A DNA stretch of 64,000 nucleotides from NCBI GenBank assembly GCA_964016885.1, contig OZ024741.1, forward strand, positions 259,222,001 through 259,286,000, given 5' to 3'. Every line of letters starts with the position of its first letter. Position 1 is the stretch's first letter. The stretch comes from Eledone cirrhosa. Taxonomy: Eukaryota. Both the position numbers and the translations under genes were made by a program. Shown in pieces: positions 1-64,000 of the stretch. The notes under the pieces were generated by a model, which was not told where the DNA came from, made no database searches, and saw only the letters and a program-made list of their open reading frames with translations.

Positions 1-3000
1 CATCCGTAAGTCGGAACACTCGTAAGTCGAAACACTCGTAAGTCGAAACACTCGTAAGCCGAAACACTCGTAAGCCGAAACACTCGTAAGTCGGAACACT
101 CGTAAGTCGGAACACTCGTAAGTCAGAACACTCGTAAGTCAGAACACTCGTAAGTCAGAACACTCGTAAGTCAGAACACTCGTAAGTCGAAACACTCGTA
201 TCGAAACACTCGTATGTCAAAACACCCGTAAGTCAAAACACTCGTAAGTCGAAACACTCGTAAGTCGAAACATTCGTATGTCGAAACATCCGTAAATCAG
301 AACACTCGTAAGTCGAAACACTCGTAAGTCGAAACACTCGTAAGCCGAAACACTCGTAAGTCGAAGCACTCGTATCGAAACACTCGTAAGTCGAAACACC
401 CTTAAGTCAAAACACTCGTAAGCCAAAACACTCGTAAGTCGAAACACTCGTAAGTCGGAACACTCGTAAGTCAGAACACTCGTAAGTCAGAACACTCGTA
501 AGTGGAAACACGCGTAAGTCGAAACACTCATAAGTCGAAACACTCGTAAGTCGAAACACCCGTAAGTCGAAACACCCGTAAGTCGAAACACTCGTATGTC
601 GAATAACTCGTAAGCCGAAACACCGTAAGTCAAAACACTCGTAAGTCGAAACACTCGTAAGTCGAAACACCCATAAGCCGAAACACTCGTAAGCCAAAAC
701 ATTCGTAAGTCGAAACACTCGTAAACCGAAACACTCGTAAGCCAAAACATTCGTAAGTCGAAACACTCGTAAGTCGAAACACCCATAGCCGAAACACTCG
801 TAAGTCTGAACACACGTAAGTCAGAACAGCCGTAAGTCAGAACACTCGTAAGTCAGAACACTCGTAAGTCAGAACACTCGTAAGTCAGAGCACTCGTATC
901 GAAACACTCGTATGTCAAAACACCCGTAAGTCAAAACACTCGTAAGTCGAAACACTCGTAAGTCGAAACACTCGTATGTCGAAACATCCGTAAATCAGAA
1001 CACTCGTAAGTCGAAACACTCGTAAGTCGAAACACTCGTAAGCCGAAACACTCGTAAGTCGAAGCACTCGTATCGAAACACTCGTAAGTCGAAACACCCT
1101 TAAGTCAAAACACTCGTAAGCCAAAACACTCGTAAGTCGAAACACTCGTAAGTCGGAACACTCGTAAGTCAGAACACTCGTAAGTCAGAACACTCGTAAG
1201 TGGAAACACGCGTAAGTCGAAAGACCCGTAAGTCAAAAATCTCGTAAGTCAAAACACTCGTAAGCCGAAACACTCGTAAGTCGAAACACTCGTAAGTCGA
1301 AACACCCGTAAGTCGGAACACTCGTAAGTCAGAATACTCGTAAGTCAAAACACTCGTAAACCGGAACACCCGTAAGGCAAAACATTCGCATGTCAAAACA
1401 CTCGTAAGTCGAAACACTCGTAAGCCGAAACACTCGTAAGTCGAAACACTCGTAAGTCGAAACACTCGTAAGTCGAAACACTCGTAAGTCAGTGCACCCG
1501 TAAGTCAGAACACTCGTAGTCAGAATACTCGTAAGTCGAAACACTCGTATGTCGAAACACCCGTAAGTCGAAACATCCGTAAGTCAAAACACTCGTATGT
1601 CGAAACACTCGTAAGCCGAAACACTCATAAGTCGAAACACTCGTAAGCCGAAACACCCGTAAGTCAAAACATTCGTAAGTCAAAACACTCGTAAGTCGAA
1701 ACACCCGTAAGTCAAAACACTCGTATGTCGAAACACTCGTAAGCCGAAACAACGTAAGTAAAAACACTCGTAAGTCGAAACACCCATAAGTCGAAACACT
1801 CGTAAGCCGAAACACTCGTAAGTCGAAACACTCATAAGCCGAAACACTCGTAAGTCGGAACACTCGTAAATCAGAACACCCGCAAGTCAGAACACTCGTA
1901 AATCAGAACACTCTTAAGTCGAAACTCACGTACGCTGAAACACTCGTAAGTCGAAACACTCGTAAGTCGAAACATCCTTAAGTCGAAACACTCGTACACC
2001 GAAACACTCGTAAGTATAAACATTAGTAAGTCGAAACACTCGTAAGCCGAAACACTCGTAAGTCGAAACACCCGTAAATCGAAACACCCGTAAGTCAAAA
2101 CACTCGTATGTCGAAACACTCGTAAACCGAAACACTCGTAAGTCGGAACACTCGTAAGTCAGAACACTCGTAAGTCAGAACACTCGTAAGTCGAAACACT
2201 CATAAGTCGAAACACTCGTAAGTCGAAACACCCGTAAGTCGAAACCCCCGTAAGTCGAAACACTCGTATGTCGAATAACTCGTAAGCCGAAACACCGTAA
2301 GTCAAAACACTCGTAAGTCAAAACACTCGTAAGTCGAAACACCCATAAGCCGAAACACTCGTAAGCCAAAACATTCGTAAGTCGAAACACTCGTAAACCG
2401 AAACACTCGTAAGCCAAAACATTCGTAAGTCGAAACACTCGTAAGTCGAAACACCCATAGCCGAAACACTCGTAAGTCGGAACACACGTAAGTCAGAACA
2501 CCCGTAAGTCAGAACACTCGTAAGTCAGAACACTCGTAAGTCAGAGCACTCGTATCGAAACACTCGTATGTCAAAACACCCGTAAGTCAAAACACTCGTA
2601 AGTCGAAACACTCGTAAGCCGAAACACCGTAAGCCAAAACACTCGTAAGTCGAAACACCCGTAAGTCGGAACACTCGTAAGTCGAAACACTCGTAAGTCG
2701 AAACACTCGTAAGCCGAAACACTCGTAAGCCGAAACACTCGTAAGTCGGAACACTCGTAAGTCGGAACACTCGTAAGTCAGAACACTCGTAAGTCAGAAC
2801 ACTCGTAAGTCAGAACACTCGTAAGTCAGAATACTCGTAAGTCGAAACACCCGTAAGTCGAAACACCCGTAAGTCGAAACACTCGTATGTCGAATAACTC
2901 GTAAGCCGAAACACCGTAAGTCAAAACACTCGTAAGTCGAAACACTCGTAAGTCGAAACACCCATAAGCCGAAACACTCGTAAGCCAAAACATTCGTAAG

Positions 3001-6000
3001 TCGAAACACTCGTAAACCGAAACACTCGTAAGCCAAAATATTCGTAAGTCGAAACACTCGTAAGTCGAAACACCCATAGCCGAAACACTTGTAAGTCTGA
3101 ACACACGTAAGTCAGAACACCCGTAAGTCAGAACACTCGTAAGTCAGAACACTCGTAAGTCAGAACACTCGTAAGTCAGAGCACTCGTATCGAAACACTC
3201 GTATGTCAAAACACCCGTAAGTCAAAACACTCGTAAGTCGAAACACTCGTAAGCCGAAACACCGTAAGCCAAAACACTCGTAAGTCGAAACACCCGTAAG
3301 TCGGAACACTCGTAAGTCGAAACACTCGTAAGTCGAAACACTCGTAAGCCGAAACACTCGTAAGCCGAAACACTCGTAAGTCGGAACACTCGTAAGTCGG
3401 AACACTCGTAAGTCAGAACACTCGTAAGTCAGAACACTCGTAAGTCAGAACACTCGTAAGTCGAAACACTCGTATCGAAACACTCGTATGTCAAAACACC
3501 AGTAAGTCGAAACACTCGTATCGAAACACTCGTATGTCAAAACACCAGTAAGTCAAAACACTCGTAAGTCGAAACACTCGTAAGCCGAAACACCGTAAGT
3601 CGAAACACCCGTATGTCGAAACACTCGTAAGCCGAAACACTCGTAAGTCGAAACACTCGTAGTCGAAACACTCGTAAGTCGAAACACCCGTAAGTCGAAA
3701 CACTCGTAAGTCGAAACACTCGTAAGCCGAAACACTCGTAAGTCGAAACACTCATAAGCCGAAACACTCGTAAGTCGAAACACTCGTAAGTCAGAACACT
3801 CGTAGTCAGAACACTCGTAAGTCAAACCACTCGTAAGCCGAAACACTCGTAAGTCGAAACACTCGTAAGTCGAAACACTCGTAAGTCGAAAAACTCGTAA
3901 GCCGGAACACTCGTAAGTCAGAACACTCGTAAGTCAGAACACTCGTAAGTCGAAACATCCGTAAATCAGAACACTCCTAAGTCAAAACACTCGTAAGTCG
4001 AAACACTCGTAAGTCAAAAATACTCGTAAGTCGAAACACCCTTAAGTAAAAACACTCGTAAGTCGAAACACTCGTAAGCCGAAACACCCGTCAGTTAAAA
4101 CACCCGTAAGTCGAAACACTCGTAAGTCAAAACTCTCGTACGCCGAAACACTCGTAAGTAAAAACATTAGTAAGTCGAAACACTCGTAAGCCGAAAGACT
4201 CATAAGTCGAAACACTCGTAAGCCGAAACACCCGTAAGTCAAAACATTCGTAAGTCAAAACACTCGTAAGTCGAAACACCCGTAAGTCGAAACACTCGTA
4301 TGTCGAAACACTCGTAAGCCGAAACACCGTAAGTAAAAACACTCGTAAGTCGAAACACCCACAAGTCGAAACACTCGTAAGCCGAAACACTCGTAAGTCG
4401 AAACACTCATAAGCCGAAACACTCGTAAGTCGGAACACTCGTAAATCAGAACACCCGCAAGTCAGAACACTCGTATCGAAACACTCGTATGTCAAAACAC
4501 CCGTAAGTCAAAACACTCGTAAGTCGAAACACTCGTAAGCCGAAACACCGTAAGTAAAAAAACTCGTAAGTCGAAATACTCGTAAGTCGAAACACTCGTA
4601 AGCCGAAACAATCGTAATTCAAAACACTCGTAAGTCGAAACACTCGTAAGCCGAAACAATCGTAAGTCGAAACACTCGTAAGCCGAAAATACTCGTAAGT
4701 CGGAACACCCGTAAGCCGAAACACTCGTATGTCGAAACACTCGTAAGCCGAAACAACATAAGTAAAAACACTCGTAAGTCGAAACACCCATAAGTCGAAA
4801 CACTCGTAAGCCGAAACACTCGTAAGTCGAAACACTCATAAGCCGAAACACTCGTAAGTCGGAACACTCGTAAATCAGAACACCCGCAAGTCAGAACACT
4901 CGTAAATCAGAACACTCTTAAGTCGAAACTCACGTACGCTGAAACACTGGTAAGTCGAAACACTCGTAAGTCGAAACACTCGTAAGTATAAACATTAGTA
5001 AGTCGAAACACTCGTAAGCCGAAACACTCGTAAGTCGAAACACCCGTAAATCGAAACACCCGTAAGTCAAAACACTCGTATGTCGAAACACTCGTAAACC
5101 GAAACACTCGTAAGTCGGAACACTCGTAAGTCAGAACACTCGTAAGTCAGAACACTCGTAAGTCGAAACACTCATAAGTCGAAACACTCGTAAGTCGAAA
5201 CACCCGTAAGTCGAAACCCCCGTAAGTCGAAACACTCGTATGTCGAATAACTCGTAAGCCGAAACACCGTAAGTCAAAACACTCGTAAGTCGAAACACTC
5301 GTAAGTCGAAACACCCATAAGCCGAAACACTCGTAAGCCAAAACATTCGTAAGTCGAAACACTCGTAAACCGAAACACTCGTAAGCCAAAACATTCGTAA
5401 GTCGAAACACTCGTAAGTCGAAACACCCATAGCCGAAACACTCGTAAGTCGGAACACACGTAAGTCAGAACACCCGTAAGTCAGAACACTCGTAAGTCAG
5501 AACACTCGTAAGTCAGAACACTCGTAAGTCAGAGCACTCGTATCGAAACACTCGTATGTCAAAACACCCGTAAGTCAAAACACTCGTAAGTCGAAACACT
5601 CGTAAGCCGAAACACCGTAAGCCAAAACACTCGTAAGTCGAAACACCCGTAAGTCGGAACACTCGTAAGTCGAAACACTCGTAAGTCGAAACACTCGTAA
5701 GCCGAAACACTCGTAAGCCGAAACACTCGTAAGTCGGAACACTCGTAAGTCGGAACACTCGTAAGTCAGAACACTCGTAAGTCAGAACACTCGTAAGTCA
5801 GAACACTCGTAAGTCAGAATACTCGTAAGTCGAAACACTCGTATCGAAACACTCGTATGTCAAAACACCCGTAAGTCAAAACACTCGTAAGTCGAAACAC
5901 TCGTAAGTCGAAACACTCGTATGTCGAAACATCCGTAAATCAGAACACTCGTAAGTCGAAACACTCGTAAGCCGAAACACTCGTAAGTCGAAACACTCGT

Positions 6001-6248
6001 ATCGAAACACTCGTAAGTCGAAACACCCTTAAGTCAAAACACTCGTAAGCCAAAACACTCGTAAGTCGAAACACTCGTAAGTCGGAACACTCGTAAGTCA
6101 GAACACTCGTAAGTCAGAACACTCGTAAGTGGAAACACGCGTAAGTCGAAAGACCCGTAAGTCAAAAATCTCGTAAGTCAAAACACTCGTAAGCCGAAAC
6201 ACTCGTAAGTCGAAACACTCGTAAGTCGAAACATTCGTAAAGCGAAAC
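1..6248 (+). repeat. Insert-free domain (HOR-2 family)
   Basis: No 69-bp element. Contains HOR-2 marker monomers (GTGCAC at 1492, GTATAAACATTAG, CTCACGTACG, GAATAACTC). Positions 1-4650 match 44355-49004. Confidence 0.85.
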
Positions 6249-6317
6249 GTATAAATAAAGATTAATGTAATGAACTTGAAAAGCATAGATATTTGAAACC
6301 GCGTCTATTTGTTATTT
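6249..6317 (+). repeat. 69-bp AT-rich interspersed element, allele A (copy 1)
   Basis: GTATAAATAAAGATTAATGTAATGAACTTGAAAAGCATAGATATTTGAAACCGCGTCTATTTGTTATTT (17/69 G+C), between the variant monomer GTAAAGCGAAAC and TCGTAAG. Confidence 0.95.
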
Positions 6318-7461
6318 TCGTAAGTCGAAACACTCGTAAGTCAGAACACTCGTAAGTCAGAACACTCGTATCGAAACACGTATGTCAAAACACCCGTAAG
6401 TCAAAACGCTCGTAAGTCGAAACACTCGTAAGTCGAAACACTCGTAAGCCGAAACAATCGTAAGTCAAAACACTCGTAAGTCGAAACACTCGTAAGCCGA
6501 AAATACTCGTAAGTCGGAACACCCGTAAGCCGAAACCCTCGTAGGTCGGAACACTCGTAAGTCGAAACACTCTTAAGTCGAAACACCCGTAAGTCGAAAC
6601 ACTCGTAAGTCGAAACACCCGTAAGTCGAAACACTCGTAAGTCGAAACACCCGTAAGTCGAAACATCCGTAAGTCAAAACACTCGTATGTCGAAACACTC
6701 GTAAGCCGAAACACTCGTAAGTCGGAACACTCGCAAGTCAGAACACTCGTAAGTCAGAACACTCGTAAGTCGAAACACTCGTAAGTCGAAACACCCGTAA
6801 GTCGAAACGCCCGTAAGTCAAAACACTCGTATGTCGAAACACTCGCAAGCCGAAAAACCGTAAGTCAAAACACTCGTAAGTCGAAACACTCGTAAATCGA
6901 AACACTCGTAAGCCGAAACACTCGTAAGCGAAAACATTCGTTAGTCGAAACACTCGTATCCCGAAACACTCGTAAGTCGAAACACTCGAAAGCCGAAACA
7001 CTCGTAAGTCGAAACACTCATAAGCCGAAACACTCGTAAGTCGGAACATTCGTAAGTCAGAACACCCGTAAATCAGAACACTCGTAGTCAGAACACTCGT
7101 AAGTCGAAACACTCGTAAGCCGAAACACTCGCAAGTCGAAGCACTCGTAATCCGAAACACTCTTAAGTCGAAACACTCGTAAGTCGGAACACTCGTAAGT
7201 CAGAACACTCGTAAGTCAGAACACTCGTAAGTCGAAACACTCGTAAGCCGAAACATCCGTAAGTCAAAACATCCGTAAGTCAAAACATTCGTAAGTCGAA
7301 ACACCCGTAGTCGAAACACTCGCAAGTCGAAACACTCGTAAGTCGAAACACGCGTAAGTCGAAACACATGTAAGTCAAAACACTCGTAAGTCAAAACACT
7401 CGTAAGCCGAAACACTCGTAAGTCGAAACACTCGTAAGTCGAAACACTCGTAAAGCGAAAC

Positions 7462-7530
7462 GTATAAATAAATATTAATGTAATGAATTTGAAAAGCATA
7501 GAGATTTGAAACCGCGTCTATTTGTTATTT
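7462..7530 (+). repeat. 69-bp element, allele B (copy 2)
   Basis: Same element with T12, T27 and G42 (AAATATTAAT, GAATTTG, ATAGAG). Confidence 0.95.
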
Positions 7531-8338
7531 TCGTAAGTCGAAACACTCGTAAGCCGAAACACTCGTGAGCCGAAACACTCGTAAGTCGGAACACTCGTAA
7601 GTCAGAACACTCGTAAGTCAGAACACTCGTAAGTTAGAACACTCGTAAGTCAGAACACTCGTAAGTCAGAACACTCGTAAGTCGAAACACTCGTATCGAA
7701 ACACTCGTATGTCAAAACACCCGTAAGTCAAAACACTCGTAAGTCGAAACACTCGTAAGTCGAAACACTCGTAAGCCGAAACACTCGTAAGCCGAAACAC
7801 TCGTAAGTCGGAACACTCGTAAGTCGGAACACTCGTAAGTCAGAACACTCGTAAGTCAGAACACTCGTAAGTCAGAACACTCGTAAGTCAGAACACTCGT
7901 AAGTCGAAACACTCGTATCGAAACACTCGTATGTCAAAACACCCGTAAGTCAAAACACTCGTAATTCGAAACACTCGTAAGTCGAAACACTCGTATGTCG
8001 AAACATCCGTAAATCAGAACACTCGTAAGTCGAAACACTCGTAAGTCGAAACACTCGTAAGCCGAAACACTCGTAAGTCGAAGCACTCGTATCGAAACAC
8101 TCGTAAGTCGAAACACCCTTAAGTCAAAACACTCGTAAGCCAAAACACTCGTAAGTCGAAACACTCGTAAGTCGGAACACTCGTATGTCAGAACACTCGT
8201 AAGTCAGAACACTCGTAAGTGGAAACACGCGTAAGTCGAGAGACCCGTAAGTCAAAAATCTCGTAAGTCAAAACACTCGTAAGCCGAAACACTCGTAAGT
8301 CGAAACACTCGTAAGTCGAAACATTCGTAAAGCGAAAC

Positions 8339-8407
8339 GTATAAATAAAGATTAATGTAATGAACTTGAAAAGCATAGATATTTGAAACCGCGTCTATTT
8401 GTTATTT
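8339..8407 (+). repeat. 69-bp element, allele A (copy 3)
   Basis: Matches copy 1. Confidence 0.95.
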
Positions 8408-9518
8408 TCGTAAGTCGAAACACTCGTAAGTCAGAACACTCGTAAGTCAGAACACTCTTAAGTCAGAACACTCGTATCGAAACACGTATGTCAAAACACC
8501 CGTAAGTCAAAACACTCGTAAGTCGAAACACTCGTAAGTCGAAACACTTGTAAGCCGAAACAATCGTAAGTCAAAACACTCGTAAGTCGAAACACTCGTA
8601 AGCCGAAAATACTCGTAAGTCGGAACACCCGTAAGCCGAAACCCTCGTAGGTCGGAACACTCGTAAGTCGAAACACTCGTAAGTCGAAACACCCGTAAGT
8701 CGAAACACTCGTAAGTCGAAACACCCGTAAGTCGAAACATCCGTAAGTCAAAACACTCGTATGTCGAAACACTCGTAAGCCGAAACACTCGTAAGTCGGA
8801 ACACTCGCAAGTCAGAACACTCGTAAGTCGAAACACTCGTAAGTCGAAACACCCGTAAGTCGAAACGCCCGTAAGTCGAAACACTCGTATGTCGAAACAC
8901 TCGCAAGCCGAAAAACCGTAAGTCAAAACACTCGTAAGTCGAAACACTCGTAAATCGAAACACTCGTAAGCCGAAACACTCGTAAGCGAAAACATTCGTT
9001 AGTCGAAACACTCGTATCCCGAAACACTCGTAAGTCGAAACACTCGAAAGCCGAAACACTCGTAAGTCGAAACACTCATAAGCCGAAACACTCGTAAGTC
9101 GGAACACTCGTAAGTCAGAACACCCGTAAATCAGAACACTCGTAGTCAGAACACTCGTAAGTCGAAACACTCGTAAGCCGAAACACTCGCAAGTCGAAGC
9201 ACTCGTAATCCGAAACACTCTTAAGTCGAAACACTCGTAAGTCGGAACACTCGTAAGTCAGAACACTCGTAAGTCAGAACACTCGTAAGTCGAAACACTC
9301 GTAAGCCGAAACATCCGTAAGTCAAAACATCCGTAAGTCAAAACATTCGTAAGTCGAACACCCGTAGTCGAAACACTCGCAAGTCGAAACACTCGTAAGT
9401 CGAAACACGCGTAAGTCGAAACACATGTAAGTCAAAACACTCGTAAGTCAAAACACTCGTAAGCCGAAACACTCGTAAGTCGAAACACTCGTAAGTCGAA
9501 ACACTCGTAAAGCGAAAC

Positions 9519-9587
9519 GTATAAATAAATATTAATGTAATGAATTTGAAAAGCATAGAGATTTGAAACCGCGTCTATTTGTTATTT
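9519..9587 (+). repeat. 69-bp element, allele B (copy 4)
   Basis: Matches copy 2. Confidence 0.95.
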
Positions 9588-10365
9588 TCGTAAGTCGAAA
9601 CACTCGTAAGCCGAAACACTCGTGAGCCGAAACACTCGTAAGTCGGAACACTCGTAAGTCAGAACACTCGTAAGTCAGAACACTCGTAAGTTAGAACACT
9701 CGTAAGTCAGAACACTCGTAAGTCAGAACACTCGTAAGTCGAAACACTCGTATCGAAACACTCGTATGTCAAAACACCCGTAAGTCAAAACACTCGTAAG
9801 TCGAAACACTCGTAAGTCGAAACACTCGTAAGCCGAAACACTCGTAAGCCGAAACACTCGTAAGTCGGAACACTCGTAAGTCGGAACACTCGTAAGTCAG
9901 AACACTCGTAAGTCAGAACACTCGTAAGTCAGAACACTCGTAAGTCAGAACACTCGTAAGTCGAAACACTCGTATCGAAACACTCGTATGTCAAAACACC
10001 CGTAAGTCAAAACACTCGTAAGTCGAAACACTCGTAAGTCGAAACACTCGTATGTCGAAACATCCGTAAATCAGAACACTCGTAAGTCGAAACACTCGTA
10101 AGTCGAAACACTCTTAAGTCGAAACACTCGTAAGTCGAAACACCCTTAAGTCAAAACACTCGTAAGCCAAAACACTCGTAAGTCGAAACACTCGTAAGTC
10201 GGAACACTCGTAAGTCAGAACACTCGTAAGTCAGAACACTCGTAAGTGGAAACACGCGTAAGTCGAAAGACCCGTAAGTCAAAAATCTCGTAAGTCAAAA
10301 CACTCGTAAGCCGAAACACACGTAAGTCGAAACACTCGTAAGTCGAAACATTCGTAAAGCGAAAC

Positions 10366-10434
10366 GTATAAATAAAGATTAATGTAATCAACTTGAAAAG
10401 CATAGATATTTGAAACCGCGTCTATTTGTTATTT
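10366..10434 (+). repeat. 69-bp element, allele A variant (copy 5)
   Basis: Allele A with ATCAAC in place of ATGAAC; variant shared with copy 9. Confidence 0.95.
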
Positions 10435-11479
10435 TCGTAAGTCGAAACACTCGTAAGTCAGAACACTCGTAAGTCAGAACACTCTTAAGTCAGAACACTC
10501 GTATCGAAACACGTATGTCAAAACACCCGTAAGTCAAAACACTCGTAAGTCGAAACACTCGTAAGTCGAAACACTCGTAAGCCGAAACAATCGTAAGTCA
10601 AAACACTCGTAAGTCGAAACACTCGTAAGCCGAAAATACTCGTAAGTCGGAACACCCGTAAGCCGAAACCCTCGTAGGTCGGAACACTCGTAAGTCAGAA
10701 CACCCGTAAGTCAGAACACTCGTAGTCAGAACACTCGTTAGTCGAAACACTCGTAAGCCGAAACACTCTTAAGTCGAAGCACTCGTAATCCGAAACACTC
10801 TTAAGTCAGAACACCCGTAAGTCAGAACACTCGTAAGTCAGAACACTCGTAAGTCAGAACACTCGTAAGTCAGAGCACTCGTATCGAAACACTCGTATGT
10901 CAAAACACCCGTAAGTCAAAACACTCGTAAGTCGAAACACTCGTAAGTCGAAACACTCGTAAGCCGAAACACCGTAAGCCAAAACACTCGTAAGTCGAAA
11001 CACCCGTAAGTCGGAACACTCGTAAGTCGAAACACTCGTAAGCCGAAACACTCATAAGCCGAAACACTCGTAAGTCGGAACACTCGTAAGTCAGAACACC
11101 CGTAAGTCAGAACACTCGTAGTCAGAACACTCGTTAGTCGAAACACTCGTAAGCCGAAACACTCTTAAGTGGAAGCACTCGTAATCCGAAACACTCTTAA
11201 GTCGAAACACTCGTAAGTCGGAAGACTCGTAAGTCAGAACACTCGTAAGTCAGAACACTCGTAAGTCGAAACACTCGTAAGCCGAAACATCCGTAAGTCA
11301 AAACATCCGTAGGTCAAAACATTCGTAAGTCGAAACACCCGTAGTCGAAACACTCGCATGTCGAAACACTCGTAAGTCGAAACACGCGTAAGTCGAAACA
11401 CATGTAAGTCAAAACACTCGTAAGTCAAAACACTCGTAAGCCGAAACACTCGTAAGTCGAAACACTCGTAAAGCGAAAC

Positions 11480-11548
11480 GTATAAATAAAGATTAATGTA
11501 ATGAATTTGAAAAGCATAGAGATTTGAAACCGCGTCTATTTGTTATTT
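11480..11548 (+). repeat. 69-bp element, A/B intermediate (copy 6)
   Basis: G12 as in allele A, T27 and G42 as in allele B. Confidence 0.95.
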
Positions 11549-14309: not shown

Positions 14310-14378
14310 GTATAAATAAAGATTAATGTAATGAACTTGAAAAGCATAGATATTTGAAACCGCGTCTATTTGTTATTT
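14310..14378 (+). repeat. 69-bp element, allele A (copy 7)
   Basis: Matches copy 1. Confidence 0.95.
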
Positions 14379-51390: not shown

Positions 51391-51459
51391 GTATAAATAA
51401 AGATGAATGTAATGAACTTGAAAAGCATAGATATTTGAAACCGCGTCCATTTGTTATTT
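51391..51459 (+). repeat. 69-bp element, allele A variant (copy 20)
   Basis: Allele A with two private substitutions (AGATGAAT, GCGTCCAT). Confidence 0.95.
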
Positions 51460-52587: not shown

Positions 52588-52656
52588 GTATAAATAAATA
52601 TTAATGTAATGAATTTGAAAAGCATAGAGATTTGAAACCGCGTCTATTTGTTATTT
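52588..52656 (+). repeat. 69-bp element, allele B (copy 21)
   Basis: Matches copy 2. Confidence 0.95.
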
Positions 52657-53464: not shown

Positions 53465-53533
53465 GTATAAATAAAGATTAATGTAATGAACTTGAAAAGC
53501 ATAGATATTTGAAACCGCGTCTATTTGTTATTT
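53465..53533 (+). repeat. 69-bp element, allele A (copy 22)
   Basis: Matches copy 1. Confidence 0.95.
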
Positions 53534-54677
53534 TCGTAAGTCGAAACACTCGTAAGTCAGAACACTCGTAAGTCAGAACACTCGTATCGAAACACGTATG
53601 TCAAAACACCCGTAAGTCAAAACACTCGTAAGTCGAAACACTCGTAAGTCGAAACACTCGTAAGCCGAAACAATCGTAAGTCAAAACACTCGTAAGTCGA
53701 AACACTCGTAAGCCGAAAATACTCGTAAGTCGGAACACCCGTAAGCCGAAACCCTCGTAGGTCGGAACACTCGTAAGTCGAAACACTCTTAAGTCGAAAC
53801 ACCCGTAAGTCGAAACACTCGTAAGTCGAAACACCCGTAAGTCGAAACACTCGTAAGTCGAAACACCCGTAAGTCGAAACATCCGTAAGTCAAAACACTC
53901 GTATGTCGAAACACTCGTAAGCCGAAACACTCGTAAGTCGGAACACTCGCAAGTCAGAACACTCGTAAGTCAGAACACTCGTAAGTCGAAACACTCGTAA
54001 GTCGAAACACCCGTAAGTCGAAACGCCCGTAAGTCAAAACACTCGTATGTCGAAACACTCGCAAGCCGAAAAACCGTAAGTCAAAACACTCGTAAGTCGA
54101 AACACTCGTAAATCGAAACACTCGTAAGCCGAAACACTCGTAAGCGAAAACATTCGTTAGTCGAAACACTCGTATCCCGAAACACTCGTAAGTCGAAACA
54201 CTCGAAAGCCGAAACACTCGTAAGTCGAAACACTCATAAGCCGAAACACTCGTAAGTCGGAACACTCGTAAGTCAGAACACCCGTAAATCAGAACACTCG
54301 TAGTCAGAACACTCGTAAGTCGAAACACTCGTAAGCCGAAACACTCGCAAGTCGAAGCACTCGTAATCCGAAACACTCTTAAGTCGAAACACTCGTAAGT
54401 CGGAACACTCGTAAGTCAGAACACTCGTAAGTCAGAACACTCGTAAGTCGAAACACTCGTAAGCCGAAACATCCGTAAGTCAAAACATCCGTAAGTCAAA
54501 ACATTCGTAAGTCGAAACACCCGTAGTCGAAACACTCGCAAGTCGAAACACTCGTAAGTCGAAACACGCGTAAGTCGAAACACATGTAAGTCAAAACACT
54601 CGTAAGTCAAAACACTCGTAAGCCGAAACACTCGTAAGTCGAAACACTCGTAAGTCGAAACACTCGTAAAGCGAAAC

Positions 54678-54746
54678 GTATAAATAAATATTAATGTAAT
54701 GAATTTGAAAAGCATAGAGATTTGAAACCGCGTCTATTTGTTATTT
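54678..54746 (+). repeat. 69-bp element, allele B (copy 23)
   Basis: Matches copy 2. Confidence 0.95.
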
Positions 54747-55554
54747 TCGTAAGTCGAAACACTCGTAAGCCGAAACACTCGTGAGCCGAAACACTCGTAA
54801 GTCGGAACACTCGTAAGTCAGAACACTCGTAAGTCAGAACACTCGTAAGTTAGAACACTCGTAAGTCAGAACACTCGTAAGTCAGAACACTCGTAAGTCG
54901 AAACACTCGTATCGAAACACTCGTATGTCAAAACACCCGTAAGTCAAAACACTCGTAAGTCGAAACACTCGTAAGTCGAAACACTCGTAAGCCGAAACAC
55001 TCGTAAGCCGAAACACTCGTAAGTCGGAACACTCGTAAGTCGGAACACTCGTAAGTCAGAACACTCGTAGGTCAGAACACTCGTAAGTCACAACACTCGT
55101 AAGTCAGAACACTCGTAAGTCGAAACACTCGTATCGAAACACTCGTATGTCAAAACACCCGTAAGTCAAAACACTCGTAAGTCGAAACACTCGTAAGTCG
55201 AAACACTCGTATGTCGAAACATCCGTAAATCAGAACACTCGTAAGTCGAAACACTCGTAAGTCGAAACACTCGTAAGCCGAAACACTCGTAGGTCGAAGC
55301 ACTCGTATCGAAACACTCGTAAGTCGAAACACCCTTAAGTCAAAACACTCGTAAGCCAAAACACTCGTAAGTCGAAACACTCGTAAGTCGGAACACTCGT
55401 AAGTCAGAACACTCGTAAGTCAGAACACTCGTAAGTGGAAACACGCGTAAGTCGAAAGACCCGTAAGTCAAAAATCTCGTAAGTCAAAACACTCGTAAGC
55501 CGAAACACTCGTAAGTCCAAACACTCGAAAGTCGAAACATTCGTAAAGCGAAAC

Positions 55555-55623
55555 GTATAAATAAAGATTAATGTAGTGAACTTGAAAAGCATAGATATTT
55601 GAAACCGCGTCTATTTGTTATTT
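55555..55623 (+). repeat. 69-bp element, allele A variant (copy 24)
   Basis: Allele A with ATGTAGTG in place of ATGTAATG. Confidence 0.95.
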
Positions 55624-56751
55624 TCGTAAGTCGAAACACTCGTAAGTCAGAACACTCGTAAGTCAGAACACTCTTAAGTCAGAACACTCGTATCGAAACA
55701 CGTATGTCAAAACACCCGTAAGTCAAAACACTCGTAAGTCGAAACACTCGTAAGTCGAAACACTCGTAAGCCGAAACAATCGTAAGTCAAAACACTCGTA
55801 AGTCGAAACACTCGTAAGCCGAAAATACTCGTAAGTCGGAACACCCGTAAGCCGAAACCCTCGTAGGTCGGAACACTCGTAAGTCGAAACACTCTTAAGT
55901 CGAAACACCCGTAAGTCGAAACACTCGTAAGTCGAAACACCCGTAAGTCGAAACATCCGTAAGTCAAAACACTCGTATGTCGAAACACTCGTAAGCCGAA
56001 ACACTCGTAAGTCGGAACACTCGCAAGTCAGAACACTCGTAAGTCAGAACACTCGTAAGTCGAAACACTCGTAAGTCGAAACACCCGTAAGTCGAAACGC
56101 CCGTAAGTCAAAACACTCGTATGTCGAAACACTCGCAAGCCGAAAAACCGTAAGTCAAAACACTCGTAAGTCGAAACACTCGTAAATCGAAACACTCGTA
56201 AGCCGAAACACTCGTAAGCGAAAACATTCGTTAGTCGAAACACTCGTAACCCGAAACACTCGTAAGTCGAAACACTCGAAAGCCGAAACACTCGTAAGTC
56301 GAAACACTCATAAGCCGAAACACTCGTAAGTCGGAACACTCGTAAGTCAGAACACCCGTAAATCAGAACACTCGTAGTCAGAACACTCGTAAGTCGAAAC
56401 ACTCGTAAGCCGAAACACTCGCAAGTCGAAGCACTCGTAATCCGAAACACTCTTAAGTCGAAACACTCGTAAGTCGGAACACTCGTAAGTCAGAACACTC
56501 GTAAGTCAGAACACTCGTAAGTCGAAACACTCGTAAGCCGAAACATCCGTAAGTCAAAACATCCGTAAGTCAAAACATTCGTAAGTCGAAACACCCGTAG
56601 TCGAAACACTCGCAAGTCGAAACACTCGTAAGTCGAAACACGCGTAAGTCGAAACACATGTAAGTCAAAACACTCGTAAGTCAAAACACTCGTAAGCCGA
56701 AACACTCGTAAGTCGAAACACTCGTAAGTCGAAACACTCGTAAAGCGAAAC

Positions 56752-56820
56752 GTATCAATAAAGATTAATGTAATGAATTTGAAAAGCATAGAGATTTGAA
56801 ACCGCGTCTATTTGTTATTT
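56752..56820 (+). repeat. 69-bp element, allele B' (copy 25)
   Basis: GTATCAATAAAG variant, as in copy 12. Confidence 0.95.
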
Positions 56821-57644
56821 TCGTAAGTCGAAACACTCGTAAGCCGAAACAATCGTGAGCCGAAACACTCGTAAGTCGGAACACTCGTAAGTCAGAACAC
56901 TCGTAAGTCAGAACACTCGTAAGTTAGAACACTCGTAAGTCAGAACACTCGTAAGTCAGAACACTCGTAAGTCGAAACACTCATATCGAAACACTCGTAT
57001 GTCAAAACACCCGTAAGTCAAAACACTCGTAAGTCGAAACACTCGTAAGTCGAAACACTCGTAAGCCGAAACACTCGAAAGCCGAAACACTCGTAAGTCG
57101 GAACACTCGTAAGTCGGAACACTCGTAAGTCAGAACACTCGTAAGTCAGAACACTCGTAAGTCAGAACACTCGTAAGTCAGAACACTCGTAAGTCGAAAC
57201 ACTCGTATCGAAACACTCGTATGTCAAAACACCCGTAAGTCAAAACACTCGTAAGTCGAAACACTTGTAAGTCGAAACACTCGTATGTCGAAACATCCGT
57301 AAATCAGAACACTCGTAAGTCGAAACACTCGTAAGTCGAAACACTCGTAAGCCGAAACACTCGTAAGTCGAAGCACTCGTATCGAAACACTCGTAAGTCG
57401 AAACACCCTTAAGTCAAAACACTCGTAAGCCAAAACACTCGTAAGTCGAAACACTCGTAAGTCGGAACACTCGTAAGTCAGAACACTCGTAAGTCAGAAC
57501 ACTCGTAAGTGGAAACACGCGTAAGTCGAAAGACCCGTAAGTCAAAAATCTCGTAAGTCAAAACACTCGTAAGCCGAAACACTCGTAAGTCGAAACACTC
57601 GTAAGTCGAAACACTTTTAAGTCGAAACATTCGTAAAGCGAAAC

Positions 57645-57713
57645 GTATAAATAAAGATTAATGTAATGAACTTGAAAAGCATAGATATTTGAAACCGCGT
57701 CTATTTGTTATTT
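57645..57713 (+). repeat. 69-bp element, allele A (copy 26)
   Basis: Matches copy 1. Confidence 0.95.
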
Positions 57714-60170
57714 TCGTAAGTCGAAACACTCGTAAGTCAGAACACTCGTAAGTCAGAACACTCTTAAGTCAGAACACTCGTATCGAAACACGTATGTCAA
57801 AACACCCGTAAGTCAAAACACTCGTAAGTCGAAACACTCGTAAGTCGAAACACTCGTAAGCCGAAACAATCGTAAGTCAAAACACTCGTAAGTCGAAACA
57901 CTCGTAAGCCGAAAATACTCGTAAGTCGGAACACCCGTAAGCCGAAACCCTCGTAGGTCGGAACACTCGTAAGTCAAAACACTCGTAAGTCGAAACATCC
58001 GTAAGTCAAAACACTCGTATGTCGAAACACTCGTAAGCCGAAACACTCGTAAGTCAGAACACTCGTAAGTCAGAACACTCGTAAGTCGAAACACTCATAA
58101 GTCGAAACACTCGTAAGTCGAAACACCCGTAAGTCGAAACACCCGTAAGTCGAAACACTCGTATGTCGAATAACTCGTAAGCCGAAACACCGTAAGTCAA
58201 AACACTCGTAAGTCGAAACACTCGTAAGTCGAAACACCCATAAGCCGAAACATTCGTAAGCCAAAACATTCGTAAGTCGAAACACTCGTAAACCGAAACA
58301 CTCGTAAGCCAAAACATTCGTAAGTCGAAACACTCGTAAGTCGAAACACCCATAGCCGAAACACTTGTAAGTCTGAACACACGTAAGTCAGAACACCCGT
58401 AAGTCAGAACACTCGTAAGTCAGAACACTCGTAAGTCAGAGCACTCGTATCGAAACACTCGTATGTCAAAACACCCGTAAGTCAAAACACTCGTAAGTCG
58501 AAACACTCGTAAGCCGAAACACCGTAAGCCAAAACACTCGTAAGTCGAAACACCCGTAAGTCGGAACACTCGTAAGTCGAAACACTCGTAAGTCGAAACA
58601 CTCGTAAGCCGAAACACTCGTAAGCCGAAACACTCGTAAGTCGGAACACTCGTAAGTCGGAACACTCGTAAGTCAGAACACTCGTAAGTCAGAACACTCG
58701 TAAGTCAGAACACTCGTAAGTCAGAACACTCGTAAGTCGAAACACTCGTATCGAAACACTCGTATGTCAAAACACCCGTAAGTCAAAACACTCGTAAGTC
58801 GAAACACTCGTAAGTCGAAACATTCGTATGTCGAAACATCCGTAAATCAGAACACTCGTAAGTCGAAACACTCGTAAGTCGAAACACTCGTAAGCCGAAA
58901 CACTCGTAAGTCGAAGCACTCGTATCGAAACACTCGTAAGTCGAAACACCCTTAAGTCAAAACACTCGTAAGCCAAAAGACTCGTAAGTCGAAACACTCG
59001 TAAGTCGGAACACTCGTAAGTCAGAACACTCGTAAGTCAGAACACTCGTAAGTGGAAACACGCGTAAGTCGAAACACTCATAAGTCGAAACACTCGTAAG
59101 TCGAAACACCCGTAAGTCGAAACACCCGTAAGTCGAAACACTCGTATGTCGAATAACTCGTAAGCCGAAACACCGTAAGTCAAAACACTCGTAAGTCGAA
59201 ACACTCGTAAGTCGAAACACCCATAAGCCGAAACACTCGTAAGCCAAAACATTCGTAAGTCGAAACACTCGTAAACCGAAACACTCGTAAGCCAAAACAT
59301 TCGTAAGTCGAAACACTCGTAAGTCGAAACACCCATAGCCGAAACACTCGTAAGTCTGAACACACGTAAGTCAGAACAGCCGTAAGTCAGAACACTCGTA
59401 AGTCAGAACACTCGTAAGTCAGAACACTCGTAAGTCAGAGCACTCGTATCGAAACACTCGTATGTCAAAACACCCGTAAGTCAAAACACTCGTAAGTCGA
59501 AACACTCGTAAGCCGAAACACCGTAAGCCAAAACACTCGTAAGTCGAAACACCCGTAAGTCGGAACACTCGTAAGTCGAAACACTCGTAAGTCGAAACAC
59601 TCGTAAGCCGAAACACTCGTAAGCCGAAACACTCGTAAGTCGGAACACTCGTAAGTCGGAACACTCGTAAGTCAGAACACTCGTAAGTCAGAACACTCGT
59701 AAGTCAGAACACTCGTAAGTCAGAACACTCGTAAGTCGAAACACTCGTATCGAAACACTCGTATGTCAAAACACCCGTAAGTCAAAACACTCGTAAGTCG
59801 AAACACTCGTAAGTCGAAACACTCGTATGTCGAAACATCCGTAAATCAGAACACTCGTAAGTCGAAACACTCGTAAGTCGAAACACTCGTAAGCCGAAAC
59901 ACTCGTAAGTCGAAGCACTCGTATCGAAACACTCGTAAGTCGAAACACCCTTAAGTCAAAACACTCGTAAGCCAAAACACTCGTAAGTCGAAACACTCGT
60001 AAGTCGGAACACTCGTAAGTCAGAACACTCGTAAGTCAGAACACTCGTAAGTGGAAACACGCGTAAGTCGAAAGACCCGTAAGTCAAAAATCTCGTAAGT
60101 CAAAACACTCGTAAGCCGAAACACTCGTAAGTCGAAACACTCGTAAGTCGAAACATTCGTAAAGCGAAAC

Positions 60171-60239
60171 GTATAAATAAAGATTAATGTAATGAACTTG
60201 AAAAGCATAGATATTTGAAACCGCGTCTATTTGTTATTT
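60171..60239 (+). repeat. 69-bp element, allele A (copy 27)
   Basis: Matches copy 1. Confidence 0.95.
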
Positions 60240-61367
60240 TCGTAAGTCGAAACACTCGTAAGTCAGAACACTCGTAAGTCAGAACACTCTTAAGTCAGAA
60301 CACTCGTATCGAAACACGTATGTCAAAACACCCGTAAGTCAAAACACTCGTAAGTCGAAACACTCGTAAGTCGAAACACTCGTAAGCCGAAACAATCGTA
60401 AGTCAAAACACTCGTAAGTCGAAACACTCGTAAGCCGAAAATACTCGTAAGTCGGAACACCCGTAAGCCGAAACCCTCGTAGGTCGGAACACTCGTAAGT
60501 CGAAACACTCGTAAGTCGAAACACCCGTAAGTCGAAACACTCGTAAGTCGAAACACCCGTAAGTCGAAACATCCGTAAGTCAAAACACTCGTATGTCGAA
60601 ACACTCGTAAGCCGAAACACTCGTAAGTCGGAACACTCGCAAGTCAGAACACTCGTAAGTCAGAACACTCGTAAGTCGAAACACTCGTAAGTCGAAACAC
60701 CCGTAAGTCGAAACGCCCGTAAGTCAAAACACTCGTATGTCGAAACACTCGCAAGCCGAAAAACCGTAAGTCAAAACACTCGTAAGTCGAAACACTCGTA
60801 AATCGAAACACTCGTAAGCCGAAACACTCGTAAGCGAAAACATTCGTTAGTCGAAACACTCGTATCCCGAAACACTCGTAAGTCGAAACACTCGAAAGCC
60901 GAAACACTCGTAAGTCGAAACACTCATAAGCCGAAACACTCGTAAGTCGGAACACTCGTAAGTCAGAACACCCGTAAATCAGAACACTCGTAGTCAGAAC
61001 ACTCGTAAGTCGAAACACTCGTAAGCCGAAACACTCGCAAGTCGAAGCACTCGTAATCCGAAACACTCTTAAGTCGAAACACTCGTAAGTCGGAACACTC
61101 GTAAGTCAGAACACTCGTAAGTCAGAACACTCGTAAGTCGAAACACTCGTAAGCCGAAACATCCGTAAGTCAAAACATCCGTAAGTCAAAACATTCGTAA
61201 GTCGAAACACCCGTAGTCGAAACACTCGCAAGTCGAAACACTCGTAAGTCGAAACACGCGTAAGTCGAAACACATGTAAGTCAAAACACTCGTAAGTCAA
61301 AACACTCGTAAGCCGAAACACTCGTAAGTCGAAACACTCGTAAGTCGAAACACTCGTAAAGCGAAAC

Positions 61368-61436
61368 GTATAAATAAATATTAATGTAATGAATTTGAAA
61401 AGCATAGAGATTTGAAACCGCGTCTATTTGTTATTT
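61368..61436 (+). repeat. 69-bp element, allele B (copy 28)
   Basis: Matches copy 2. Confidence 0.95.
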
Positions 61437-62244
61437 TCGTAAGTCGAAACACTCGTAAGCCGAAACACTCGTGAGCCGAAACACTCGTAAGTCGGAACAC
61501 TCGTAAGTGAGAACACTCGTAAGTCAGAACACTCGTAAGTTAGAACACTCGTAAGTCAGAACACTCGTAAGTCAGAACACTCGTAAGTCGAAACACTCGT
61601 ATCGAAACACTCGTATGTCAAAACACCCGTAAGTCAAAACACTCGTAAGTCGAAACACTCGTAAGTCGAAACACTCGTAAGCCGAAACACTCGTAAGCCG
61701 AAACACTCGTAAGTCGGAACACTCGTAAGTCGGAACACTCGTAAGTCAGAACACTCGTAAGTCAGAACACTCGTAAGTCAGAACACTCGTAAGTCAGAAC
61801 ACTCGTAAGTCGAAACACTCGTATCGAAGCACTCGTATGTCAAAACACCCGTAAGTCAAAACACTCGTAAGTCGAAACGCTCGTAAGTCGAAACACTCGT
61901 ATGTCGAAACATCCGAAAATCAGAACACTCGTAAGTCGAAACACTCGTAAGTCGAAACACTCGTAAGCCGAAACACTCGTAAGTCGAAGCACTCGTATCG
62001 AAACACTCGTAAGTCGAAACACCCTTAAGTCAAAACACTCGTAAGCCAAAACACTCGTAAGTCGAAACACTCGTATGTCGGAACACTCGTAAGTCAGAAC
62101 ACTCGTAAGTCAGAACACTCGTAAGTGGAAACACGCGTAAGTCGAAAGACCCGTAAGTCAAAAATCTCGTAAGTCAAAACACTCGTAAGCCGAAACACTC
62201 GTAAGTCGAAACACTCGTAAGTCGAAACATTCGTAAAGCGAAAC

Positions 62245-62313
62245 GTATAAATAAAGATTAATGTAATGAACTTGAAAAGCATAGATATTTGAAACCGCGT
62301 CTATTTGTTATTT
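62245..62313 (+). repeat. 69-bp element, allele A (copy 29)
   Basis: Matches copy 1. Confidence 0.95.
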
Positions 62314-63441
62314 TCGTAAGTCGAAACACTCGTAAGTCAGAACACTCGTAAGTCAGAACACTCTTAAGTCAGAACACTCGTATCGAAACACGTATGTCAA
62401 AACACCCGTAAGTCAAAACACTCGTAAGTCGAAACACTCGTAAGTCGAAACACTCGTAAGCCGAAACAATCGTAAGTCAAAACACTCGTAAGTCGAAACA
62501 CTCGTAAGCCGAAAATACTCGTAAGTCGGAACACCCGTAAGCCGAAACCCTCGTAGGTCGGAACACTCGTAAGTCGAAACACTCGTAAGTCGAAACACCC
62601 GTAAGTCGAAACACTCGTAAGTCGAAACACCCGTAAGTCGAAACATCCGTAAGTCAAAACACTCGTATGTCGAAACACTCGTAAGCCGAAACACTCGTAA
62701 GTCGGAACACTCGCAAGTCAGAACACTCGTAAGTCAGAACACTCGTAAGTCGAAACACTCGTAAGTCGAAACACCCGTAAGTCGAAACGCCCGTAAGTCA
62801 AAACACTCGTATGTCGAAACACTCGCAAGCCGAAAAACCGTAAGTCAAAACACTCGTAAGTCGAAACACTCGTAAATCGAAACACTCGTAAGCCGAAACA
62901 CTCGTAAGCGAAAACATTCGTTAGTCGAAACACTCGTAACCCGAAACACTCGTAAGTCGAAACACTCGAAAGCCGAAACACTCGTAAGTCGAAACACTCA
63001 TAAGCCGAAACACTCGTAAGTCGGAACACTCGTAAGTCAGAACACCCGTAAATCAGAACACTCGTAGTCAGAACACTCGTAAGTCGAAACACTCGTAAGC
63101 CGAAACACTCGCAAGTCGAAGCACTCGTAATCCGAAACACTCTTAAGTCGAAACACTCGTAAGTCGGAACACTCGTAAGTCAGAACACTCGTAAGTCAGA
63201 ACACTCGTAAGTCGAAACACTCGTAAGCCGAAACATCCGTAAGTCAAAACATCCGTAAGTCAAAACATTCGTAAGTCGAAACACCCGTAGTCGAAACACT
63301 CGCAAGTCGAAACACTCGTAAGTCGAAACACGCGTAAGTCGAAACACATGTAAGTCAAAACACTCGTAAGTCAAAACACTCGTAAGCCGAAACACTCGTA
63401 AGTCGAAACACTCGTAAGTCGAAACACTCGTAAAGCGAAAC

Positions 63442-63510
63442 GTATAAATAAATATTAATGTAATGAATTTGAAAAGCATAGAGATTTGAAACCGCGTCTA
63501 TTTGTTATTT
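63442..63510 (+). repeat. 69-bp element, allele B (copy 30)
   Basis: Matches copy 2. Confidence 0.95.
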
Positions 63511-64000
63511 TCGTAAGTCGAAACACTCGTAAGCCGAAACACTCGTGAGCCGAAACACTCGTAAGTCGGAACACTCGTAAGTCAGAACACTCGTAAGTCA
63601 GAACACTCGTAAGTTAGAACACTCGTAAGTCAGAACACTCGTAAGTCAGAACACTCGTAAGTCGAAACACTCGTATCGAAACACTCGTATGTCAAAACAC
63701 CCGTAAGTCAAAACACTCGTAAGTCGAAACACTCGTAAGTCGAAACACTCGTAAGCCGAAACACTCGTAAGCCGAAACACTCGTAAGCCGAAACACTCGT
63801 AAGTCGGAACACTCGTAAGTCAGAACACTCATAAGTCAGAACACTCGTAAGTCAGAACACTCGTAAGTCGAAACACTCGTAAGCCGAAACACCGTAAGTC
63901 GAAACACCCGTATGTCGAAACACTCGTAAGCCGAAACACTCTTAAGTCGAAACACTCATAAGCCGAAACACTCGTAAGTCGGAACACTCGTAAATCAGAA

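What the first reader, a model, noticed from the sequence alone, without database searches (positions are those of the whole stretch)
1..64000. Multi-level 16-bp satellite with two alternating HOR families: candidate centromeric or heterochromatic array
Seen: a very short monomer (16 bp) builds nested periods of ~0.3 kb, ~0.9 + 1.2 = 2.07 kb, ~4.7 kb and 37-47 kb, with domains ordered HOR-2 / HOR-1 / HOR-2 / HOR-1. Established: HOR layering is typical of centromeric satellites such as primate alpha satellite, but those use ~150-180-bp monomers; here each HOR holds roughly 120-300 monomers. Inference: this is an actively homogenising array, possibly a centromere or other structural chromosome domain. 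I do not recognise it as a named satellite family.
Basis: partly seen in the sequence, partly recalled or inferred. Interest (0 to 1): 0.7.

Follow-up and report, generated by a model that had tools for sequence, protein, structure and literature searches.

The report
Helitron-born satellite with transient higher-order repeats
This is part of a roughly 6-million-base array of a 16-letter repeat, almost all in one region of one chromosome of a likely octopus, that likely grew out of a small jumping gene whose pieces are still embedded in it; its nested spacings are real but short-lived and likely record local duplications, and a centromere role is possible but untested.

Summary
The 16-bp satellite is real (4,019 monomers) and so are the 2.07-kb (127-131 monomers) and 4.7-kb (292-301) units. 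But they are not two independent alternating families: they share a ~0.6-kb block at which most switches occur, the window has 12 segments rather than 4, and in 464 kb of contiguous sequence neither unit runs beyond ~4.5 copies. The 37-47 kb 'period' is one of many duplication lags (3.5-115 kb and more). The family totals ~6 Mb, nearly all at chromosome 2, 254.7-263.1 Mb, so it is not a genome-wide centromeric satellite; a chromosome-specific centromere remains untested. One unexplained point: bulk monomers are 8.3% from the Helitron monomer, embedded Helitron pieces only 1.3-2.2% from theirs. This scan had already reported the Helitron origin on five neighbouring windows. Verdict: new member of a known kind (Helitron internal-repeat satellites).

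The parts
1..64000 (+). 16-bp satellite, 4,019 monomers; interior of a 1.27-Mb array (G000:C2:258,910,760-260,180,120) within a ~6-Mb family domain
14312..16385 (+). Prototype of the 2.07-kb unit (H1), 130 monomer-equivalents including two Helitron relics (halves ~1,180 + ~890 bp)
31685..36326 (+). Prototype of the 4.64-kb relic-free unit (H2), 292 monomers; about four tandem copies at 29.4-49.0 kb
15777..16368 (+). Shared ~0.6-kb hub block, present in both H1 and (twice, partly) in H2; 35 occurrences of >=250 bp in the window; most H1/H2 switches fall in or beside it
6251..6318 (-). First of 30 copies of the 68-bp insert: 63 bp from the 5' half of the dispersed Helitron plus a 5-bp join (type a; others at 8341, 10368, 14312, 16386, 18430, 20504, 22095, 24169, 27734, 53467, 55557, 57647, 60173, 62247 etc.)
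7449..7531 (-). Type-b relic with the Helitron's degenerate 15-bp terminal monomer in front (others at 9506, 15494, 17568, 19596, 23277, 26842, 29028, 51378, 52575, 54665, 56739, 61355, 63429)
1..5819 (+). H2-type segment; 1-4,650 is repeated without mismatch at 44,355-49,004
5994..11701 (+). H1-type segment (about 2.5 units)
12095..13904 (+).
14005..20960 (+). H1-type segment (about 3.5 units)
20985..29299 (+). Mosaic: H2 piece 20,985-21,655, H1 21,486-24,313, H2 piece 24,556-26,108, H1 26,111-29,299
29430..51293 (+). Long H2-type segment (tandem 4.6-4.8 kb copies, then fragments)
51449..63787 (+). H1 51,449-57,975, H2 piece 58,042-59,733, H1 59,564-63,787

Best explanation
The window lies in a chromosome-2 satellite domain that likely arose when the 16-bp internal repeat of a small non-autonomous Helitron expanded, and whose nested periods likely record successive unequal exchanges or duplications rather than fixed functional units. 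Shown: the same monomer occurs 1-4 times (once 13 times) inside a dispersed 514-bp element with Helitron ends; both halves of that element are embedded in the satellite in register with the monomers; one truncation junction is shared by about 2,000 relics on two chromosomes; the 2.07- and 4.7-kb units share a hub and run only a few copies. Inferred: slippage lengthened the internal array (3 to 13 to many), local duplication of mutated monomers built a loose ~20-mer pattern, kilobase duplications then trapped the element's edges, misalignment at the hub produced the H1/H2 mosaic, and 10-115 kb duplications and one jump to chromosome 1 spread the result. The domain is predicted to be non-functional (peri)heterochromatic DNA.
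For: Dispersed element: 159 exact probe matches, 80/79 by strand, listed on C1-C4; 40 best copies 96-100% alike on many contigs; of 30 probe-selected loci 22 have 3 monomers, 7 have 2, 1 has 1; 5' TC in 29 of 29 and hairpin-CTAG|T in 28 of 28 located ends; one copy has 13 monomers. Relics match the element at 94-99% over 124 bp in nearly all copies, two at 89%. The + array starts in the element's 3' half and repeats it 24 times in its first 90 kb. Satellite-only junction: 2,017 exact copies, on C1 and C2, also in raw reads of run X21 (19 reads over three register positions). Commonest satellite monomer and third commonest are the element's two monomers; four derived classes probed are in all ten satellite groups sampled and in 0 of 60 element loci. 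HOR runs: longest H1 run 9 half-units, 72 of 240 two-step relic spacings are 2.0-2.12 kb; 5 of 29 H2-marker intervals are 4.6-4.8 kb. Length variants differ by whole monomers (2,058/2,074/2,090). Relic varies at 0.8% per site, flanking monomers 0.4-0.7%: no sign of constraint.
Against: Clock mismatch: bulk monomers are 8.3% from the nearest element monomer, while embedded body is 1.3%, embedded relic 2.2% and dispersed bodies 1.0% from the element consensus (the dispersed set was chosen by an exact probe and so leans young). Only ~9 monomers beside the body and ~3-4 beside the relic are element-like, and recent substitution rates in relic and monomers are equal, so simple in-place growth of one young copy needs a 4-6-fold faster early mutation of the array interior that I could not show. 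Lack of function is not shown: no chromatin data. Only about 1.2 Mb of the genome was read directly.
Confidence: 0.62

Rival explanations
1. The satellite is older than the young Helitron family: it came from an older relative of the element (or the element captured its monomers), and a young copy later recombined into the diversified array through monomer homology, leaving its two halves as passengers.
For: 8.3% versus 1.3-2.2% divergence; abrupt change from element-like to bulk monomers after ~9 and ~4 monomers; derived monomers directly after the relic junction; relic-free stretches exist (L015, L052, L061, L002); runs X4 and X11, labelled as other organisms, show monomer depth far above element-body depth and little or no relic. 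Recombination between element-borne and free arrays is proposed for oyster Cg170 (PMC12628747, passage).
Against: The element's monomers are the satellite's two ancestral-looking majority types, and its degenerate terminal monomer grades into element sequence, which favours birth in the element; no older monomer-bearing subfamily was seen among the 40 best hits of two searches (only best candidates scored); the X4/X11 signal may be carry-over DNA and contig holes prove nothing.
Confidence: 0.22
2. The array is (part of) the functional centromere of chromosome 2, and recent homogenisation and HOR layering reflect centromeric turnover.
For: Megabase size, interior position at 61-63% of a 416-Mb chromosome, neighbours are other satellites for at least 249-263.5 Mb; the chromosome-1 outlier lies in a similar satellite mosaic beside the same 25/27-bp repeat; very young duplications; loose ~320-bp rhythm in all blocks. 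Oyster CenH3-bound sequences are not uniform among chromosomes (PMC7348941, abstract).
Against: Absent as arrays from other chromosomes: forward dimer count 2,876 versus 2,837 expected from known arrays; 10,043 reverse dimers equal ~4.6 Mb, within the ~5.5 Mb of sampled reverse blocks; 91 of 91 perfect pentamers on C2. No stable HOR; domain broken by other satellites, a retroelement and non-satellite DNA. Unchecked scan notes name other, more widespread candidates (e1-10311123, e1-10347674).
Confidence: 0.12
3. The higher-order layering is an assembly artefact.
For: A 4,650-bp zero-mismatch duplicate; a 200-N scaffold gap 3 kb beyond the array's right end across which the neighbouring 39-bp satellite flips orientation, so the + orientation of this array is uncertain; no long raw reads could be laid.
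Against: No N in 464 kb; copies carry private differences (about 0.5 events per kb) and lineage-shared variants; the relic junction is in independent raw reads.
Confidence: 0.04

Closest known systems
DINE-TR1 central-repeat satellites of Drosophila virilis/americana, D. biarmipes and D. serrata dmgsat-7 (PMC9957191, passages read)
   Same: Internal tandem repeat of a non-autonomous rolling-circle element expanded into satellite arrays while short versions stay dispersed.
   Different: There ~150-bp repeats in a Helentron and arrays reported up to ~83 kb; here a 16-bp repeat in a canonical TC...CTAG Helitron, a 1.27-Mb array, ~6 Mb in all, with both element halves trapped inside.
Crassostrea gigas Cg_HINE elements and Cg170/HindIII satellite (PMC7492417, part 1 of 7 read; PMC12628747, passages)
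   Same: Mollusc; element-borne, one-sided 'intermediate' and free arrays of one repeat coexist.
   Different: Oyster repeats are 100-500 bp and scattered genome-wide in Helentron-type HINEs; here the long arrays are concentrated on one chromosome and the element has Helitron1 ends.
Primate alpha-satellite higher-order repeats (recalled, no call)
   Same: Multi-monomer units far more alike (about 99.4-99.9%) than their monomers (about 91%); variants by whole-monomer gain or loss.
   Different: Alpha HORs are fixed n-mers of 171-bp monomers in hundreds to thousands of tandem copies and bind CENP-A; here units run at most ~4.5 copies, interconvert through a hub and have no chromatin evidence.
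Human HSat2/HSat3 nested short-monomer satellites (recalled; named as a comparison in scan note e1-10309920)
   Same: Very short monomer, kilobase super-periods of hundreds of monomers, chromosome-restricted megabase heterochromatic blocks.
   Different: No transposon parent or relic in HSat2/3 as recalled; their 1.8/3.6-kb periods are more stable.

Membership tests
Non-autonomous Helitron1 (HLE1), for the dispersed parent element | 5' TC dinucleotide (PMC11417382, passages) | tested here: met
   29 of 29 located 5' ends among 30 loci
Non-autonomous Helitron1 (HLE1), for the dispersed parent element | 3' short hairpin with CTRR suffix | tested here: met
   CTAG in 28 of 28 located 3' ends; terminal hairpin -16.8 kcal/mol in the one copy folded
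Non-autonomous Helitron1 (HLE1), for the dispersed parent element | Insertion between A and T | tested here: inconclusive
   T follows in 28 of 28, but the base before TC is A in 7, G in 21, T in 1 of 29; the G copies share a ~270-bp upstream module with its own TC-like end; no empty sites examined
Non-autonomous Helitron1 (HLE1), for the dispersed parent element | Dispersed copies with sharp shared boundaries, too short to encode Rep-helicase | tested here: met
   514-bp consensus, 24 full copies aligned, 159 exact probe hits
Non-autonomous Helitron1 (HLE1), for the dispersed parent element | Autonomous partner with the same termini | not tested
   Helitron_like_N domains are abundant (150 scored of 3,704 candidates) but their termini were not compared
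Helentron/HINE (HLE2, DINE-1 type) | Insertion between T and T (PMC4067079, PMC11417382, passages) | tested here: not met
   5' flank is T in 1 of 29
Helentron/HINE (HLE2, DINE-1 type) | Subterminal inverted repeats at both ends | not tested
   No dedicated search; the only inverted repeat noticed is the 3' hairpin
Satellites derived from Helitron internal repeats | Same repeat inside dispersed elements and in long arrays | tested here: met
Satellites derived from Helitron internal repeats | Direction element-to-satellite established | tested here: inconclusive
   Element halves in register with the array and ancestral monomer types versus clock mismatch
Alpha-satellite-type HOR array | Units much more alike than their monomers | tested here: met
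   4-12 substituted monomers per 130, 6-7 per 295; monomers 8-9% from consensus
Alpha-satellite-type HOR array | One fixed unit repeated in long tandem runs (recalled) | tested here: not met
   Longest H1 run 4.5 units; 5 of 29 H2-marker intervals at 4.6-4.8 kb in 464 kb
Centromeric satellite | Arrays on most or all chromosomes | tested here: not met
Centromeric satellite | Megabase-scale interior array | tested here: met
   1.27-Mb array, ~6-Mb domain
Centromeric satellite | CENP-A occupancy / primary constriction | not testable with these tools
   No ChIP, FISH, Hi-C or methylation data available

The most novel reading that the evidence does not exclude
A 16-bp repeat from a still-young Helitron swelled to 6 Mb within the lifetime of that family, mutating several-fold faster than its own flanks, and became the centromere of a giant octopod chromosome: a dated, transposon-seeded new centromere with its parent element's halves still inside as internal clocks.
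Probability: 0.1. Interest if true: 0.8.

Novelty: new member of a known kind. Interest (0 to 1): 0.36.

Why it matters
It is a clear, megabase-scale case of the known route from a Helitron internal repeat to satellite DNA, in a clade for which four literature searches listed no satellite or centromere description. The embedded element halves give a neutral internal clock, and they disagree 4-6-fold with the monomers, which makes a real question testable: do expanding arrays mutate faster, or do young transposons recombine into old arrays? It also shows that nested periods read from one 64-kb window can be transient duplication lags, not evidence of a centromere.

Tried and rejected
Fixed 37-47 kb top-level period: rejected on 464 kb; a ~42-44 kb tandem duplication does exist just left of and inside the window, but other regions have other lags. 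Two independent HOR families: rejected. Subtelomeric or alternative-telomere repeat: rejected, the array is interior and 4 of 20 contig ends sampled are TTAGGG arrays. Relic as a conserved functional punctuation mark: no lower variation than adjacent monomers. CpG decay as a methylation signal: 4 of 55 rare single-change monomers are CpG transitions and CpG o/e is ~2.1; no excess, but too weak to say anything on methylation. Conservation in other species: 17 runs under other organism labels hold 0.06-0.21 of the words; five were laid (X4-X7, X11) and hold monomers, X7 also the satellite junction, X4/X11 also an element body close to this family at low depth; related species and carry-over DNA cannot be told apart, the 12 unlaid runs are no evidence. 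No RNA holder listed. HOR order in raw reads: not checkable, only short reads and short contigs were served. Probe for the 196/227-bp satellite gave 13,330 hits but listed only C1, so its chromosome spread was not learned. Sequence and relatives look-ups in earlier notes gave nothing relevant. Dfam and Repbase were not available; supplements of the papers were not read and could hold octopus repeat consensus sequences.
Full report
Observation. The window is one tandem array of a 16-bp monomer, 5-63,993, 4,019 copies, 84% matches. A cyclic alignment gives 185 monomer types; the commonest has 740 copies. Thirty copies of a 68-bp AT-rich non-satellite insert interrupt it, spaced about 890 and 1,180 bp. 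Long-word lags peak at 2,074 and its plus/minus 16 variants, at 4.6-4.8 kb and at several values between 35 and 48 kb. Nine 2.07-kb units (H1) measure 2,027-2,090 bp, 127-131 monomer-equivalents, with 4-12 substituted monomers and 0-10 gap events between copies; three 4.7-kb units (H2) measure 4,642-4,787 bp, 292-301 monomers, 6-7 substitutions. Lag 130 in the monomer string scores 0.174 against at most 0.075 in shuffles. The 0.3-kb level is a loose rhythm: median 319 bp between runs of one monomer class, 319 and 318 bp in the chromosome-1 and reverse blocks, 288 bp over 464 kb.

The two units are not independent families. Two prototypes tile 93% of the window. They share 548 of 1,839 48-mers and a block of about 0.6 kb, found 35 times in the window, in or beside which most switches fall. 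In 464 kb of contiguous sequence (no N) H1-like and H2-like kilobases are 188 and 205 of 464, the longest H1 run is nine half-units, 72 of 240 two-step relic spacings are 2.0-2.12 kb, and 5 of 29 intervals of an H2 marker are 4.6-4.8 kb. Rare-word lags change along the array: 48.5, 43, 5-5.5, 10, 12, 42-44.5, 23-25, 35, 108, 115.5, 30 kb. The 37-47 kb level is therefore a set of one-off duplications; one of them, 1-4,650 versus 44,355-49,004, has no mismatch.

Host and place. The window is G000:C2:259,222,001-259,286,000 in a 3.0-Gb genome with contigs of 443, 416, 379, 379, 135, 103, 94 Mb and then 60-37 Mb and TTAGGG ends on 4 of 20 ends sampled. Molluscan haemocyanin genes with seven units are present (counted from coordinates) and one unit scores best per single unit on chain 1js8 (that this is octopus haemocyanin is recalled). 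I infer an octopod. The + array runs from about 258.911 to 260.180 Mb. Reverse-strand blocks were sampled from 254.74 to 263.0 Mb, interleaved with a 39-bp satellite, other repeats and non-satellite DNA. A 97-kb array lies at C1 279.30-279.39 Mb and a tiny one at C2 240.96 Mb. Perfect dimers number 2,876 forward and 10,043 reverse; sampled densities predict 2,837 forward from the known arrays and convert the reverse count to about 4.6 Mb, 5.9 Mb in all. All 91 perfect pentamers are on C2. This is an extrapolation, but it leaves little room for arrays on other chromosomes.

Origin. Seven pentamer hits at C2 80.56 Mb fall in a solitary element with 13 monomers followed by the window's insert. 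Its family is dispersed: 40 best hits at 96-100% on many contigs, 159 exact matches to an element-specific probe. In 30 probe-selected loci the element has 3 (22), 2 (7) or 1 (1) monomers; read on the minus strand it starts with TC (29 of 29 located ends) and ends in a hairpin and CTAG before T (28 of 28), and 27 of 28 are followed by another TC start; the consensus is 514 bp. These are the Helitron1 features given in PMC11417382 (passages); the A-before-TC rule is met in only 7 of 29, because most copies carry a shared extra upstream module. Helitron Rep domains are abundant, though no partner was matched. The insert is 63 bp of the element's 5' half plus a 5-bp join back to monomers; this join has 2,017 exact copies on C1 and C2, so those relics descend from one event and the C1 array was likely seeded from the satellite. 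It is present in raw reads of run X21. The element's 3' half, with the head of the neighbouring element, opens the + array and recurs 24 times in its first 90 kb and in a reverse block at 260.5 Mb. Four derived monomer classes are in all ten satellite groups and in none of 60 element loci.

Evidence against the simplest story. Dispersed bodies are 1.0% from the element consensus (exact-probe sample, leaning young), embedded bodies 1.3%, relics 2.2%, but bulk monomers are 8.3% from the nearer element monomer. Element-like monomers extend about nine places from the body and three to four from the relic. Recent variation is equal in relic and flanking monomers (0.8% versus 0.4-0.7%). Either the array interior mutated 4-6 times faster during early growth while its edges did not, or the satellite is older and a young copy recombined into it. 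I favour birth in this Helitron lineage because the element holds the majority monomer types and a degenerate end monomer continuous with its own sequence, but single in-place growth is inferred, not shown.

Centromere. For: size, interior position, satellite neighbourhood, young duplications; oyster CenH3 DNA differs among chromosomes (PMC7348941, abstract), and CENP-A is reported as expressed in an octopus (PMC12210499, passages). Against: restriction to one chromosome, no stable unit, a fragmented domain. No chromatin data can be had here; I put it at 0.12.

Comparison. The route is known: DINE-TR1 satellites in Drosophila (PMC9957191, passages), Cg_HINE and Cg170 in oyster (PMC7492417, part 1 of 7; PMC12628747, passages). 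HINE criteria (PMC4067079, passages) do not fit the target site. Searches for octopus or cephalopod satellites and centromeres (listings only) showed no description of this repeat; an Octopus vulgaris repeat annotation has no 'satellite' or 'centromer' in its main text (PMC13282606, passages); its library, other supplements, Dfam and Repbase were not seen. Five unreviewed notes of this scan reached the Helitron origin on neighbouring windows; I had found the element before reading them, and they are not independent support. What this report adds is the dissection of the higher-order levels and the clock mismatch.

Verdict. Real, recently amplified, Helitron-derived satellite with transient higher-order structure; new member of a known kind; interest 0.36.

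Noticed in passing
L044:4554-5227 (G000:C2:80.5555-80.5562 Mb): A dispersed Helitron copy whose internal repeat has grown from 3 to 13 near-perfect monomers: an intermediate stage of expansion.
   Followed up: yes
L120-L149: 27 of 28 element copies end directly on the TC start of another Helitron-like element, of several families, suggesting targeting of Helitron 5' ends (also in scan note e1-10323897).
   Followed up: partly
L004 end / L094:1-538 (C2 258.910 Mb): The array's left edge is cut by a reverse-transcriptase-like reading frame with a YVDD motif and one stop in the part read; family not tested.
   Followed up: partly
L105:3049-3251 (C2 260.183 Mb): 200-N scaffold gap across which the 39-bp satellite changes orientation; the + orientation of the window's array may be a scaffolding choice.
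   Followed up: no
L002, L003, L012, L049, L051, L105, L106, L151, L156: A CpG-free 36/39/75-bp satellite alternates with the CpG-rich 16-bp satellite over C2 254.3-260.3 Mb; 13,284 probe hits, none on C1.
   Followed up: partly
L017, L045, L168, L169: The same 25/27-bp composite satellite borders the 16-bp array on C1 (279.29 Mb) and lies at C2 249-251 Mb, hinting at exchange between the two satellite domains.
   Followed up: no
L018-L020, L112 (C1 279.39-280.01 Mb): Mosaic of further satellites: 33-bp, 19-bp, a 20-bp repeat with many inversions, and a 196/227-bp satellite (13,330 probe hits).
   Followed up: partly
G000:C2:240,964,031-240,965,689: Five satellite-type junctions in 1.7 kb, 14 Mb from the main domain: a small seeded array.
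   Followed up: no
L114-L119 and hits on C16, C19, C20, C27: Near-identical Helitron Rep domains recur about every 110-220 kb in one orientation on C20 and C27, suggesting a large tandem amplification containing an autonomous Helitron.
   Followed up: no
G000:C1:173.74-173.91 Mb and C26:21.93-22.02 Mb: Several seven-unit haemocyanin genes: three on C1, an inverted pair on C26.
   Followed up: no
runs X4, X7, X11: Runs under other organism labels hold the monomer, and parts of the element or the satellite junction, at low depth; related species or carry-over DNA.
   Followed up: partly
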